Positions 44,519 through 60,628 of a stretch of DNA of 64,000 nt are shown in pieces. Under the pieces are notes generated by a model. It saw only the letters and a program-made list of their open reading frames with translations, was not told the origin of the DNA and ran no database searches. Source of the stretch: Tubulanus polymorphus (lineage: Eukaryota; Animalia; Nemertea); contig NC_134026.1 of the NCBI RefSeq assembly GCF_964204645.1, positions 11,307,950-11,371,949 of the forward strand, written 5' to 3'. How positions within the stretch are numbered: position 1 is the stretch's first letter; each line of letters opens with the position of its first letter. Made by a program: the position numbers and the translations under genes.

Positions 44519-44928
44519 AATAATAGGGGTAATGGGCTTTCAGGCCAAAGGTCGAACGGTCGAGCTCATTAAAAAACAAAACATTAAAAGTAATTTAAAA
44601 CTATAATATATTTTCATAACCGTGTGCATTTTATATTATAACTAAATATTTATTCTAAGATATCCATAATTTAAATTTTAAATGCATATTGTATTAAATC
44701 AATTGGTCGCTCCACTTCGCTACCGCTCCGCTCCGCCACCAATTGATTTATTTACAATACACAAATTCATATAATCAAATATATTTTAATAATAATAATG
44801 ATTCTATTATTCAACTGAAATACACACGGTTATGAAAATATATTATAGTTTTAAATTACTTTTAATATTTGTTTTCAATGAACTCGACCATTCAACCTTT
44901 AACCTGAAAGCCCATTACCCCTATTACT
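44519..44928. repeat. 410-bp terminal palindrome within TIR of copy C
   Basis: taataggggtaatgggctttcagg ... cctgaaagcccattacccctattact; inner stem aatcaattggt / accaattgatt around a GCTCC-rich loop. Confidence 0.92.
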
Positions 44929-45134
44929 CTTAAAATAATCATGTACATGAATCACATTTAAATTGACAGATTATTCAATATAAAAGTATATATTTACAAC
45001 ATTATTTCAATATTCATATTTGTGTGAGTTAGATTTTTAAACATTAAAAGTGTTAGTAAAGTGTGATTGAAATAATACATGATATAAATCATTGAACTTC
45101 TAAAATCAATTTAGTAAAAAAATATGTATAATAA

Positions 45135-45804
45135 ATGGAATCAGAACAACCACAAACTATCAATATTACAAATTACACCGGCGTTATAAATATATACTAC
45201 AAGAAGTGTTCTAAATGTAAAATAGATAAATTAGCTATAACAGAATTTAATAAGCGTAAGATTAGCAAAGATGGTTTTCAATATTGCTGTAAAACTTGTA
45301 CTAAACTATATACCAAACAATATCGAGAATATAATAGAGAAGCTTACAATGATTATATGACAGAATATATGAGAGGAAGATATCAAACAGATCTTAATTT
45401 TAGATTAAAACAATGCTTAAGATCTAGATTAACACAATTATTCAACAAAGAAACACATTCAGAAACATTATCTAATTTTTTTGGGTTGTTCAGATGAATT
45501 TCTCAAATCATGGATAATATATCAATTCGATGATAAAATGAATATAGATAATTATGGTGAATACTTTCATATTGATCACGTGTTGCCGATTTCTAAATTT
45601 GACATGAATGATGAATACAATAAAAAACTTATTTGGAATTGGAAGAATCTAAGACCTTTAGAAAAGAAGGAAAACATAATTAAATCTAATAAACTAGATT
45701 TACAGTTATATTTAGATCAACTGGATAAAGCAAAGACATTTGTTGAATTATGGAATAGTATTTCACAGAATCAACCGCATTCTGAGGTTTTAATCAGTGG
45801 TTAG
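45135..45804 (+). pseudogene. HNH / EndoVII-like endonuclease of the large-DNA-virus type (one frameshift in a T-run)
   Basis: KKCSKC...CKTC zinc ribbon, FRLKQCLRSRL, LGCS, NYGEYFHIDHVLP, WKNLRPL...ENIIKSNK. Confidence 0.8.
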
Positions 45805-46173
45805 AAAGCTGGCAATTCTATTTGAGCTTTGTATGTATATAATACATAGCTTTTGCTTACTACTAAAACATATGTTGTCAAATATATCTTGTTTTCAATT
45901 CTAAAGAATTAATTAACTTCATCATAAAGAAACATCTGTTACAATCCAGGCAAATATGTGCAGAAATAATTAGTTTGGTTGAACGTGCGCCACGTCGGCA
46001 GTTAGAAATCAACTGTCACATACATAGTACGTATTGGATATTCTCTCTCAAAACACAGTTTACAGTTCTAAATCTAAGTGTAAGTACCGTTTTTTGTAGT
46101 TATTATGAAGTAGGGAAACCTTTAAACATATTTAAGTACAGTAATTCATTTTCACGATATCTTTTAGATTAAA

Positions 46174-46902
46174 ATGGAACACAAAGATGAACCAGAAATT
46201 CTAAGCCAACCATCGGAAAAGGAACTAATGCTGCTGGAAAGTGAAACTCAGGAATCAATAGAAATGGAGAATGAAAATCTCGTAATTGACGAACAAACTT
46301 CACAAAAATTACAAGAACATTTGAACAATCATCAAGAAATGGTGAAAATTCTGAGTAAATTAATACATAATAAACAATTACCGCGCGAACTACAATTACC
46401 AAAATTACCAGCAACGCGACTTAAATTGCTGTTGGGACTCAAAAAATCGAAAACTAAGAAAATGAGTGGAGAAGAGTTGAACGAGTTTTTAAAATCTAAA
46501 TCAATCATTGACACAGATCATTTAAACTTTCCGGAAATACAAAGTGTAGAAGTTATTTCATTTGCTGAAATTACCGATATCTTAAAAACAAGTTATAAAA
46601 CCATATCAAATAGAAAAGCAAATCACCTATGGGACCACATCATTTTCGGGGGTTATCTAAATATAGGGTTTTCAATGTTTGATAAAGAAACTGAGGGGAT
46701 TTCTTGGGGGCTGTGGGTTAAAAAGAACATAGATATCAGTGCCGGCTTTGAAAGAAAACTGAGAAGAGTAGGTAGATTAATAAAATATGAAAAATTCAAA
46801 ATATTAGGATTAGCATTTAGTGAAGTAGTCAGATATTTACCAGAAATTGAAGAAATGATTGGAAACAATCCAGTAATTAAAGAATTCTGGACAAAATTAT
46901 AA
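46174..46902 (+). CDS. Uncharacterised 242-aa accessory protein, helical C-terminus
   Basis: Intact ORF; GGYLN...WGLWVKKNIDIS...KLRRVG loosely resembles HTH-like small domains. Confidence 0.65.
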   Translation: MEHKDEPEILSQPSEKELMLLESETQESIEMENENLVIDEQTSQKLQEHLNNHQEMVKILSKLIHNKQLPRELQLPKLPATRLKLLLGLKKSKTKKMSGEELNEFLKSKSIIDTDHLNFPEIQSVEVISFAEITDILKTSYKTISNRKANHLWDHIIFGGYLNIGFSMFDKETEGISWGLWVKKNIDISAGFERKLRRVGRLIKYEKFKILGLAFSEVVRYLPEIEEMIGNNPVIKEFWTKL

Positions 46903-46974
46903 ATTATAACACTGAAGGTCTTAGATACCAAAAAATGTAATCTCGATTGTATATATCTGTTTTAATATTGTATT

Positions 46975-47305
46975 GTTTACTGTTAACTAAGTATTGCGAT
47001 TGAACCGCTTTTCTATTGTTCTCCATTGTTCTATTATTGATCGTTGGCGGCGGTTGTTCTGTATTGATTGTTTACTGTTAACTGTGTATTGCGCAATAAC
47101 CGGTCCGATTGGACTGCATTTCTATTGTTCTCCATTGTTCTATTATCGATCGTTGTTGACGGAAACAGCTGCTCAATATTGATTGGTTACATTTCTATGT
47201 TTGAATGTTGTAGTTTACAGAATAAAAATATAACTGTGTATTGCGCAATAACCGGTCCGATTGGACCGCTTTTCTATTGTTCTCCATTGTTCTATTATCG
47301 ATCGC
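46975..47305. repeat. Three direct repeats with embedded palindromes
   Basis: ttctattgttctccattgttctattat(c/t)gatcg three times; aactgtgtattgcgcaataaccggtccgattggac twice. Confidence 0.85.
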
Positions 47306-58167: not shown

Positions 58168-58182
58168 TTATTTTTACATATT

Positions 58183-58536
58183 TTATTCGAAATCTATTTC
58201 ATGATGCCCTTTTTCATTCTTACCTTTGTATACGAAATAGAAATCACCAGAACATAATTCTTCTAGATCTTCACTTGATAATCTATGAAATCTATCCTGT
58301 AAATATGTTCTGAATTTATATGTATTTCCTTTTAATCCTTCATATTCTAAGTGTATAACTAATTTATCTCCATAGTTATTAGTAACTGTATCAATATTTG
58401 TAATTAAATATTTCTTATGAATTGTTAATTCTGTTAACTTTTTGAATTTATAATCTACAGATTTTACATTTTTTATATCTTTAATTCTATCTAGAAATAA
58501 TTTGTTGTTCTCACTGTGTGTTTGTTTACTCTCCAT
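58183..58536 (-). CDS. Copy C homolog of ORF 39439
   Basis: Near-identical 117-aa protein. Confidence 0.75.
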   Translation of the reverse strand: MESKQTHSENNKLFLDRIKDIKNVKSVDYKFKKLTELTIHKKYLITNIDTVTNNYGDKLVIHLEYEGLKGNTYKFRTYLQDRFHRLSSEDLEELCSGDFYFVYKGKNEKGHHEIDFE

Positions 58537-58564
58537 TTTAATAACATATTTTATTAAAATTTAA

Positions 58565-60011
58565 TTAACACGTTAGAATTCTTTTCATTATCTCGTTCTC
58601 TTTTGTTTCTTCTCTTTTAAATTTTAAGTACTCATCTAAATTACAACCATAAGCAACTGTATGAATTCCATCATCTAAAATATATCTTTTATCATCAAAT
58701 GGATTCAAACTAACCTTTTCAATTTCTTCAATAAACATTTCATGATCTTCAGATCTTAAACATCTCATCTTATGTTTTCTAACTTCTTCATTGAATATAC
58801 AATTGATGTAATCTTTGAAATGAATATTCTTTTCTACTACACTTTTGGTTATTCCTTTTAACTTTTTAGCTTCATGTTCTTCAGTTTTATATGAATACAT
58901 TTTAGATCTAATACCAATGAATTCAATCATTTCTTCACCGCCTAATTCATCTTTGAATTTACCAGGAACTTTTTTATTATCATTGCTAAACAATTCATGA
59001 TTTTTAGGATAATTACTGAAATCAAAATGATGTTTTAATGTTTTTAAATCATCAGTTATGTTATCAGTTTTTATCTTTAATATGTAAGAATCGGTATCAA
59101 AATATAATATTTCTATATGTTTTTCTCCAAAAAGTGGTTGTAATACATTATAATAGAATTCATACATTAGTAATTTTGATAATTCTAAAACTGACGCGCC
59201 AACATAGATTGGTTTATTAAATTTCATTGATGTTCTTCTCATCTTAACTGCAGCTAAATTTTCATCAAATATTCTGTTACCAATGAACTTAGGATATGAT
59301 TGTAAATGTCTAATTCTTTTACCATTACTAACTAACTCAATATCATTTCTATTTCTAATATTTTCACAAGTCTTACCATAGAATGCATTGTTCATTAGTT
59401 TGAAGAAATCTTTCTCAAAATCAGTTTTAGCTTCAGTTCTCTGTTTGGTATTAAAATCTATATTTTTCTAACCACTTAGATTGACTAAATGAAATATAAC
59501 TATGCACTTTTTTTAGGATCATTCCTTGTTTTAGATAAAACTTTAACATTCTATAATGTACTACATAATTATATTTATCTTCTTGAGTTACCATTAACTT
59601 TTCTGTATGAATATGATTTTCAGGTTTAATTCTTTTTTGATAATTTGATAATTCTTCATGAGTTACAGTTTTATGTTCTGACAGTATGCTTTTAATTGTG
59701 TTCTGTTTCTTATCATTATCTTTATCAAAATAATCTTCACCTAAAATATCATTATTCTTATTTCTAATATGACTTTTAGATTTTAAATGTTCATTATAAT
59801 ATCTTTTATCACTGAATGATTGATTACATGTATCACATTTGTATGTTTCTTTTTCATTCTTTAATTCATCTAATTTAGTTTCTAATATATCATCTTCATA
59901 TTCTAATTTCAATTTATTCTCTAAATGTGTTTTAGTTTTATTGTGTCTTGATTTTTGGGATTTATCTATATTGATATTACATGTTGGACAGTAGTACTTA
60001 TTTGCTTCCAT
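58565..60011 (-). pseudogene. polB: Copy C polB with ~2.6-kb internal deletion
   Basis: N-terminal Zn-finger part joined at ~59690 to EHKTVTHEEL; KLMNNAFYGK and YFDTDS retained. Confidence 0.92.
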
Positions 60012-60218
60012 TTTAATACTAAATTTTTTTTTTTAAATTGATTTTAGAAGTTCAATGATTTATATTATGTATTATTTCAATCAGACTTTACTAACACTTT
60101 TAATGTTTAAAAATCTAACTCACACAAATATGAATATTGAAATAATGTTGTAAATATATACTTTTATATTGAATAATCTGTCAATTTAAATGTTATTCAT
60201 GTACATGATTATTTTAAG

Positions 60219-60628
60219 AGTAATAGGGGTAATGGGCTTTCAGGTTAAAGGTTGAATGGTCGAGATCATTGAAAAAGAATATTAAAAGTAATTTAAAACT
60301 ATAATATATTTTCATAACCGTGTGTATTTCAGTTGAATAATAGAATAATAATTATTATTATAATATATTTGATTATATGAATTTGTGTACTGTAAATAAA
60401 TCAATTGGTCGTGGAGCGGAGCGGTAGCGAAGTGGAGCGACCAATTGATTTAATACAATATACATCTAAAATTCAAATTATTGATATCTTAGAATAAATA
60501 TTTAGTTATAATATAAAATGCACACGGTTATGAAAATATATTAAAGTTTTAAATTACTTTTAATGTTTTGTTTTTTAATGAGCTCGATCGTTCGACCTTT
60601 GGCCTGAAAGCCCATTACCCCTATTACT
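60219..60628. repeat. 410-bp terminal palindrome within TIR of copy C
   Basis: agtaataggggtaatgggctttcagg ... cctgaaagcccattacccctattact. Confidence 0.92.

What the first reader, a model, noticed from the sequence alone, without database searches (positions are those of the whole stretch)
44519..60628. Candidate system: endogenous hairpin-ended, virophage-like adintovirus
One element combines capsid genes, packaging ATPase and integrase, no recognisable adenain-type protease or RNA polymerase, extreme AT richness, no evident introns, pox-like start motifs, palindromic ends and an NCLDV-type HNH gene. Inference: a provirophage-like parasite that would reactivate in cells infected by a cytoplasmic large DNA virus and might protect the host. 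The copies here are inactivated; restoring the polB deletion gives a ~18.7-kb progenitor.
Basis: inference. Interest (0 to 1): 0.8.

Follow-up and report, generated by a model that had tools for sequence, protein, structure and literature searches.

The report
Animal provirus with poxvirus-type late promoters
A broken, many-copy virus-like element in what is likely an animal genome has fold-back ends and starts most of its genes with a poxvirus-style late promoter signal, so it likely ran only in cells infected by a poxvirus-like helper; the helper and any benefit to the host are not shown.

Summary
The element is real: 16.1 kb, 617-nt inverted repeats (96%), nested in a sister copy, most genes broken. 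It encodes pPolB, chromodomain integrase, A32 ATPase and a double-jelly-roll capsid; no adenain was found, so it is not filed as an adintovirus. Promoter test passed: TAA|ATG opens 12 of 17 genes (44 of 630 of all ATGs), with a T-run about 10 nt upstream, as in vaccinia late promoters. Among GC-matched relatives the signal is nearly all-or-none (79 of 82 starts in 21 loci, 0 of 31 in 10), so AT-richness does not explain it. Each end opens with a 410-nt palindrome whose arms change together between copies, but reads show one orientation, not poxvirus-like flip-flop: the ends look open and fold-back, not closed. Best reading (0.55): a protease-less Polinton/PLV provirus transcribed by a poxvirus-type helper polymerase. 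No helper, RNA or protection was shown; 'NCLDV-type HNH' is unproven. The scan noted a terminal palindrome once before, in another Maverick.

The parts
44519..45134 (+). Left terminal inverted repeat (first bases degraded)
   Evidence: 96% to right TIR; 2,214-2,264 reads with unlike flanks pile at 44521
44519..44928 (.). Left terminal palindrome: outer arm, AT-rich poorly paired middle, GC-rich loop near 44700-44745, inner arm
   Evidence: population variants
45135..45804 (+). HNH/EndoVII-like nuclease gene, frameshifted; TAAATG start
   Evidence: PHROG endonuclease VII E=1e-9
46174..46902 (+). 242-aa ORF, unknown; variable among copies; TAAAATG start
   Evidence: no family hit; lower depth and skips in reads
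47718..48320 (+). 200-aa conserved family gene, unknown; TAAATG start
   Evidence: homologues beside the ATPase in relatives
48313..48671 (+). Small basic protein gene, broken; TAAATG start
48678..49761 (+). rve integrase with C-terminal chromodomain; frameshift and stop
   Evidence: Pfam rve, Chromo E=2.4e-5
49754..50365 (+). A32 packaging ATPase; premature stop; TAAATG start
   Evidence: Pox_A32 E=9.5e-12
50396..50699 (.). Internal fold-back around a 13-mer array between convergent genes
50856..51818 (-). Zinc-finger ORF, shared by few copies
   Evidence: read depth 23-35 against several hundred elsewhere
51839..53070 (-). [quoted passage not shown]
   Evidence: Capsid_N; relative's model matches PBCV-1 capsid Z=22.6, rmsd 4.1, 339 aligned
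53110..54579 (-). Coiled-coil protein with hydrophobic C-terminus, one stop; TAAATG start
   Evidence: conserved in relatives; no family hit
54601..55920 (-). Family marker protein (~440 aa) with C-terminal membrane helix, one stop; TAAATG start
   Evidence: 302 homologues; model pLDDT 81.5 without a clear fold match
55937..56370 (-). SLATT-like two-helix membrane protein gene, frameshifted; TAAATG start
   Evidence: weak SLATT_fungal, below cut-off
56397..57402 (-). Three small genes (about 139, 73 and 113 aa), two hydrophobic; the first broken; all TAAATG starts
57420..58167 (-). Likely minor capsid (penton) gene, frameshift and stops; TAAATG start
   Evidence: conserved in relatives; penton label inferred from size and position, not folded
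58183..58536 (-). 117-aa ORF, unknown
   Evidence: 33% to L002 homologue
58565..60011 (-). Protein-primed DNA polymerase B gene with a large internal deletion; TAAAATG start
   Evidence: about 2.6 kb shorter than in copy B; 44% to L029 pPolB, which hits DNA_pol_B_2
60012..60628 (-). Right terminal inverted repeat with its palindrome at 60219-60628
34756..44518 (+). Sister copy B, left part; its end carries the same palindrome with element-specific changes in both arms; continues at 60629-64000

Best explanation
This is a decayed, nested copy of a many-copy Polinton-like provirus without a detectable adenain, whose genes were likely transcribed by the post-replicative RNA polymerase of a poxvirus-like helper virus, so that it would have multiplied as a virophage-like parasite. 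Shown: gene set, ends, target duplication, many insertion sites, TAAATG plus upstream T-run, palindromic ends with co-changing arms and one orientation. Inferred: virions carry the genome and integrase in, integration at the AGT termini needs no helper, and on infection the helper's late machinery fires nearly all genes at once. Inferred for the ends: an open, protein-primed linear genome whose 3' ends snap back, giving a protected duplex origin on the displaced strand; trimming and refilling of the outer arm from the inner arm would explain why identity is highest at the terminus. Host protection is a guess.
For: TAA|ATG at 12 of 17 starts in A, three more read TAAAATG, against 44 of 630 ATGs; 7 of 8 in B; 14 of 15 ORFs in L002. 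At GC 0.28-0.44: 79 of 82 starts in 21 loci, 0 of 31 in 10 loci; 11 of 73 ORFs in seven unrelated AT-rich PLV contigs. T at -14 in 88% of 75 upstream stretches against 23 of 81 non-start TAAATG. TAA closes a long frame in only 5 of 91 cases. A matrix from distant relatives ranks A's 12 starts within the top 64 of 264 TAAAT sites, p=8e-7. Vaccinia late promoters are TAAAT(G) over the start codon with a T about 10 nt upstream (PMC11980589 passages). AATAAA is not avoided in coding strands, 43 against 44.8+-4.0. No RNA polymerase hit. Arms: 8 columns change in both arms together between A and B; G-T wobbles favour the 3'-terminal strand 8 of 8, 9 of 9, 6 of 7.
Against: No helper virus was found or searchable, and no transcript was seen. 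Much of the family (at GC above 0.41 only 3 of 174 starts have TAA) uses purine at -3 with the same capsid module, so the module does not require this promoter. AATAAA avoidance is also only weak in those loci (z -1.4, -1.5), so that test separates the classes poorly. The early terminator TTTTTNT is not depleted in A (6 against 6.4). The upstream sequences come from related loci and are not independent; intergenic DNA is T-richer than coding strands, which helps the ranking test. High copy number fits ordinary germline transposition. Several conserved proteins were not modelled and could hide a transcription function. No close relative was found in IMG/VR.
Confidence: 0.55

Rival explanations
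1. An autonomous nuclear Polinton: host RNA polymerase II transcribes it, and TAAATG with its T-run is a lineage-specific core-promoter or translation signal that resembles the poxvirus one by convergence.
For: Many insertion sites in the host; sister lineages with the same capsid genes have Kozak-like starts; coral polintovirus genes are expressed in host transcriptomes (PMC11131425 passages); no helper seen.
Against: T at -3 is a poor translation context (recalled) yet near-invariant; the T-run spacing matches vaccinia late promoters; 43 AATAAA sites sit in coding strands at chance level; the signal is all-or-none by locus at equal GC.
Confidence: 0.25
2. The promoter is read by a viral-type polymerase that is not a poxvirus: another large cytoplasmic virus, an endogenous large-virus gene set, or a cytoplasmic plasmid-like partner.
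For: Yeast cytoplasmic virus-like elements use a TAAAN initiator with poly(A) slippage (PMC6211774 passages); TAA-class loci fall in at least four separate groups of the marker tree; a non-TAA relative, L006, carries a VLTF3-like gene and a TATA-like motif close to the ATG.
Against: The review passages read give the bipartite TAAAT(G/A) late motif for poxviruses and other motifs for ASFV, mimivirus and CroV (PMC5294985); no such partner was seen.
Confidence: 0.15
3. Ends are covalently closed poxvirus-like hairpins, resolved from concatemers.
For: AT-rich, incompletely paired middle of the arms; promoter-like sites face the loop in both arms, ranks 8 and 13 of 264, recalling the vaccinia concatemer resolution site (PMC8956199 passages); 20 reads switch strand at mirror positions; EndoVII-like domains in polB and the HNH gene.
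Against: Three of three ends in the window have the same arm outside; in reads 2,264+317 host junctions lie at the outer end and none of the six largest loose-end piles (smallest 251) lies at the inner end, where a 1:1 flip-flop predicts about a thousand. The rare switches may be library artefacts.
Confidence: 0.15

Closest known systems
Adintoviruses / group 1-2 Maverick-Polintons (Polintoviricetes; PMC8502044, bioRxiv 2024.03.25.586562)
   Same: pPolB, chromodomain rve integrase, A32 ATPase, MCP, penton-like gene, long TIRs, AGT ends, about 6-bp target duplication, animal host.
   Different: No adenain found; MCP only 11-12% identical to the adintovirus and MELD entries among the top 50 structural hits; poxvirus-late-type promoters; 410-nt terminal palindromes.
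Animal-derived PLVs outside the Maverick groups (Octocorallia, Hydrozoa, Bivalvia; bioRxiv 2026.06.19.733378; cnidarian MCP outliers in PMC10120064)
   Same: Animal host, capsid module unlike Maverick hexons; most PLV groups lack the protease and swap replicases, as here (pPolB, VSR-type pPolB, SF1 helicase in relatives).
   Different: Whether this is the same lineage was not tested (their profiles are in closed supplements); 'promoter' does not occur in either main text.
Mavirus/EMALE provirophages and Halocafeteria endogenous virophages and PLVs (bioRxiv 2026.07.28.741278)
   Same: Integrated, AT-rich, nested copies; helper-type late promoter; terminal palindromes reported in Halocafeteria.
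   Different: Protist hosts and CroV-type promoter; palindromes there are about 52 nt and go mainly with non-pPolB elements; virophages have a protease.
Entomopoxvirus-associated PLVs (PMC11296320)
   Same: Proposed parasites of poxviruses in animals.
   Different: All four encode an adenovirus-type protease; found in occlusion bodies; no promoter analysis in the main text.
Yeast cytoplasmic virus-like elements pGKL1/2 (PMC6211774)
   Same: pPolB, TIRs, AT-rich, TAAAN initiator.
   Different: They encode their own RNA polymerase and neither capsid nor integrase (latter recalled).

Membership tests
Adintovirus (Eupolintoviridae-type) | Adenain (Ulp1-like) maturation protease | tested here: not met
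   No Pfam protease hit in 25 ORF pieces of A or 51 further proteins; 0 hits of a recalled catalytic motif in six frames of the window; unannotated gaps only 369, 815 and 490 nt. Unseen left-end DNA of other copies was not tested.
Adintovirus (Eupolintoviridae-type) | rve integrase with C-terminal chromodomain | tested here: met
Adintovirus (Eupolintoviridae-type) | pPolB with N-terminal OTU-like domain | tested here: inconclusive
   A Cys and a His motif are shared between copy B and L029 in the expected region; the OTU label is recalled, not folded.
Adintovirus (Eupolintoviridae-type) | Hexon recognisable by BLASTP against adintovirus hexons | tested here: inconclusive
   No reference hexons on hand; Foldseek puts MELD and adintovirus entries at ranks 24 and 29, 11-12% identity; only Capsid_N is hit in Pfam, 7 of 12 members.
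Polinton/Maverick (broad) | pPolB + integrase, TIRs of 100-1500 bp, 5-8 bp target duplication | tested here: met
   duplication 5 of 6 bases alike
Polinton-like virus (Aquintoviricetes) | MCP/ATPase clade membership | not tested
   No reference set; nearest IMG/VR ATPases are PLV-sized contigs at 24-27%; MCP fold nearest PBCV-1/faustovirus types.
Virophage (Virophaviricetes) | Cysteine protease among the core genes | tested here: not met
Virophage lifestyle | Helper-type late promoter before most genes | tested here: met
   against PMC11980589
Virophage lifestyle | Replication only with a helper virus; reduced helper yield | not testable with these tools
   No helper or infected sample on hand.
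Poxvirus-type hairpin telomere | Flip and flop isomers of an imperfect terminal palindrome | tested here: not met
   One orientation in 3 of 3 ends and in integrated-copy reads; unintegrated DNA not seen.

The most novel reading that the evidence does not exclude
A widespread, protease-less lineage of Polinton-like proviruses in animal germlines are provirophages of poxvirus-like viruses: their promoters record which helper they tap, lineages have switched between poxvirus-late and other promoter types, and the many host copies form an inducible antiviral layer in animals, with fold-back 3' ends serving as self-repairing origins.
Probability: 0.3. Interest if true: 0.9.

Novelty: new variant of a known kind. 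Interest (0 to 1): 0.7.

Why it matters
Whether animal Polintons are autonomous or depend on large DNA viruses is a long-open question with almost no handle. A promoter that is present at nearly every gene in some lineages and absent in GC-matched sisters makes it testable with 5'-end sequencing and a reporter, predicts undiscovered poxvirus-like viruses in these hosts, and gives a simple sequence screen for helper-dependent proviruses in animal genomes. The co-evolving, single-orientation terminal palindromes add a second testable feature: a structural constraint on ends in a pPolB element.

Tried and rejected
No host genome was held, so copy number rests on reads: core depth of several hundred to 1,168 at 1,934 Mb read would mean some 150-600 copies if the genome is 0.5-1 Gb (assumed). 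No RNA holder listed; this is no evidence on expression. IMG/VR scans with the marker gene, polB, alignment A1 and a relative's MCP found nothing; the ATPase alignment gave seven distant contigs. The marker protein has no clear fold match: Foldseek 0 at E<=0.001 in PDB and BFVD, best VIA Z 6.5; this does not show a new fold. Atlas and representative searches gave no result. Six peptide motifs were absent from the Starrett supplement, which is held cut. Rejected: AT-richness as cause of TAAATG; stop-start coupling (5 of 91); raw TTTTTNT strand bias, 7 against 46, which vanishes under codon shuffling; the L019 palindrome as a viral end (it holds telomere-like repeats); NCLDV origin of the HNH gene (no named hit, phage homologues at 24-36%). 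The marker tree is the quick version, and its label counts are inflated by loci with under two starts.
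Full report
Anatomy. Element A spans 44519-60628 (16,110 nt, 24.1% GC against 35.7% for window 1-26000). Its inverted repeats are alike in 590 of 617 columns. It interrupts the coiled-coil gene of a sister copy B, which starts at 34756 and runs past 64000; the flanks give a target duplication alike in 5 of 6 bases. B sits in the polB of an older copy C. The flank holds ORFs that I recall as Penelope-, CR1-, CACTA- and MULE-like, so the host is likely an animal. A encodes rve integrase with chromodomain and an A32 ATPase, pPolB, an HNH/EndoVII-like nuclease, an MCP, a likely penton and several small or membrane proteins. 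Most genes carry stops or frameshifts, and polB is about 2.6 kb shorter than in B. In one WGS run of the same species label, 72,929 reads lay on the element, with 2,214 loose ends of low agreement (0.38) at the terminus, that is, many insertion sites. That run may be the window's own source.

Family. The marker gene at 54601-55920 has 302 homologues. Of 291 metagenome matches the best 80 were fetched. They share the capsid, ATPase, marker, coiled-coil and small genes, span 20-59% GC, and differ in replicase: pPolB or an SF1 helicase. No protease was hit by Pfam in 25 ORF pieces of A or 51 further proteins, and a recalled adenain motif had no hit in the window. L029, with a TIR copy at each side, shows neither protease nor integrase. 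The L002 MCP models as a double jelly roll (pLDDT 69), nearest PBCV-1 (Z 22.6) and faustovirus (20.6), ahead of Sputnik (18.2), mavirus (17.4) and adenovirus hexon (10.7); MELD and adintovirus entries rank 24 and 29 in BFVD. Adenain, chromodomain integrase, OTU-PolB and a BLAST-recognisable hexon define adintoviruses (PMC8502044, parts 2-3 and passages; bioRxiv 2024.03.25.586562, section 16). So this is a Polinton in the broad sense but should not be filed as an adintovirus. It may be the animal PLV lineage noted outside the Maverick groups (bioRxiv 2026.06.19.733378, section 7 and passages; PMC10120064 passages); not tested.

Promoter test. TAA directly precedes the ATG in 8 of 12 starts of open ORFs in A and in the four broken genes whose starts match L002; the zinc-finger start was not found: 12 of 17. 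Three of the four exceptions read TAAAATG. Background is 44 of 630 ATGs. B has 7 of 8, L002 14 of 15 ORFs of 100 aa or more. Over the 80 loci: 19 of 25 core starts below 30% GC, 79 of 102 at 30-41%, 3 of 174 above. Among the 31 loci of GC 0.28-0.44 with two or more starts, 21 loci give 79 of 82 and 10 give 0 of 31. Seven unrelated AT-rich PLV contigs give 11 of 73. TAA ends a frame of 50 codons or more in 5 of 91 cases, so it is not stop-start coupling. A T-run lies at -15 to -11, with T at -14 in 88% of 75 stretches, against 23 of 81 TAAATG sites that head no ORF. A matrix built from distant relatives alone ranks A's 12 starts among the top 64 of 264 TAAAT sites (p=8e-7). Vaccinia late promoters are TAAAT, usually followed by G over the start codon, with a conserved T ten bases upstream among other Ts (PMC11980589 passages; PMC5294985 passages; PMC12917281 passages); the peak here is at the eleventh base. 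A helper-type late motif is the accepted sign of virophage reactivation (bioRxiv 2026.07.28.741278 passages). Against: upstream stretches are related, AATAAA is at chance in A (43 against 44.8) but only weakly avoided in non-TAA loci, TTTTTNT is not depleted in A, and no helper or transcript was seen. TAA loci form at least four groups in a quick marker tree, with non-TAA loci among them: either an old state lost several times or repeated gains.

End test. Each TIR opens with a palindrome of about 410 nt that pairs almost to the last base: -108 and -121 kcal/mol for the two strands, against -29.4+-5.1 for 15 shuffles and -13 to -43 for 33 other stretches of the element. Arms are identical over the first 26 columns, 88-93% alike over 110 and about 50% nearer the loop. 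Eight columns differ between A and B in both arms together; 24 stay fixed between outer and inner arm. Transition mismatches give G-T pairs in the 3'-terminal strand in 8 of 8, 9 of 9 and 6 of 7 cases; these ends share ancestry. In 9,151 reads two variant pairs at mirror positions have like frequencies (28% and 32%; 35% and 40%), though other variants have no listed mirror (17 rows not shown). A second subfamily leaves the reference at 44575 (605 reads) and rejoins at 44882 (324 reads) with mirror-image sequence, and small groups of reads skip 306-325 nt of the middle. The fold is thus kept while sequence and length change. Orientation is not mixed: 2,264 and 317 host junctions lie at the outer end, none of the six largest piles at the inner end (179 smaller rows not shown), and 20 reads switch strand at mirror positions. 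Vaccinia hairpins come as flip and flop (PMC8956199 passages). Open ends with a 3' snap-back fit better; an asymmetric resolution cannot be excluded.

What is new. Terminal palindromes are in print for Halocafeteria virophages and one PLV subtype, about 52 nt and mostly without pPolB, and this scan noted one in another Maverick (unchecked). Poxvirus-associated PLVs are known, with protease and without promoter analysis in the main text (PMC11296320, part 1 and passages). I found no paper linking Polintons to TAAATG: 3 listed papers, none on this by title or abstract start, 20 listed, 0; subscription journals are not covered, the Starrett supplement is cut and bioRxiv supplements are closed, and these may hold the lineage. 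Other papers seen as passages only: PMC11161782, bioRxiv 2023.08.22.554363, PMC11131425, PMC6211774, bioRxiv 2026.10.13.758929.

Verdict. A new variant of a known kind: a protease-less, Polinton-like animal provirus with a strong poxvirus-late-type promoter signature and conserved fold-back ends. Helper-driven transcription by a poxvirus-type polymerase 0.55; the fuller case with host defence 0.3. Interest 0.7.

Noticed in passing
window 50396-50699: A 300-nt fold-back around a 13-mer array lies between the convergent ATPase and zinc-finger genes; L002 has a weaker AT-rich palindrome right after its ATPase. Could be an inserted element or a terminator.
   Followed up: partly
window 45107: 573 reads join this point to other upstream DNA, so many copies carry something else between the left repeat and the HNH gene.
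   Followed up: no
window 44660-44770: Promoter-like TAAAT sites in both arms face the hairpin loop (ranks 8 and 13 of 264), loosely like the vaccinia concatemer resolution site; post hoc.
   Followed up: partly
L006:3242-3748, 7433-7843: A non-TAA relative carries VLTF3-like and Bcl-2 genes and has a TATA-like motif within about 20 nt of 8 of 9 starts, perhaps a different helper type.
   Followed up: partly
L002:10343-10981; L045:9279-12458; L029:1-432: Relatives carry a deoxynucleoside kinase (L002), an SF1 helicase in place of pPolB (L045), or a classic AGTAGT end with a perfect 24-bp subterminal hairpin and no integrase (L029).
   Followed up: partly
L081: A relative filed in a bacterial MAG, likely a binning stray, has TAAAATG at 3 of 3 starts.
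   Followed up: no
window 36847-37887: The polB of copy B holds an endonuclease VII-like insert, as reported for some Polinton polymerases.
   Followed up: partly
window 30735-31332: A 154-nt tandem repeat element, with dispersed copies at 10.9, 14.9 and 17.4 kb, is inserted in the oldest copy C.
   Followed up: no
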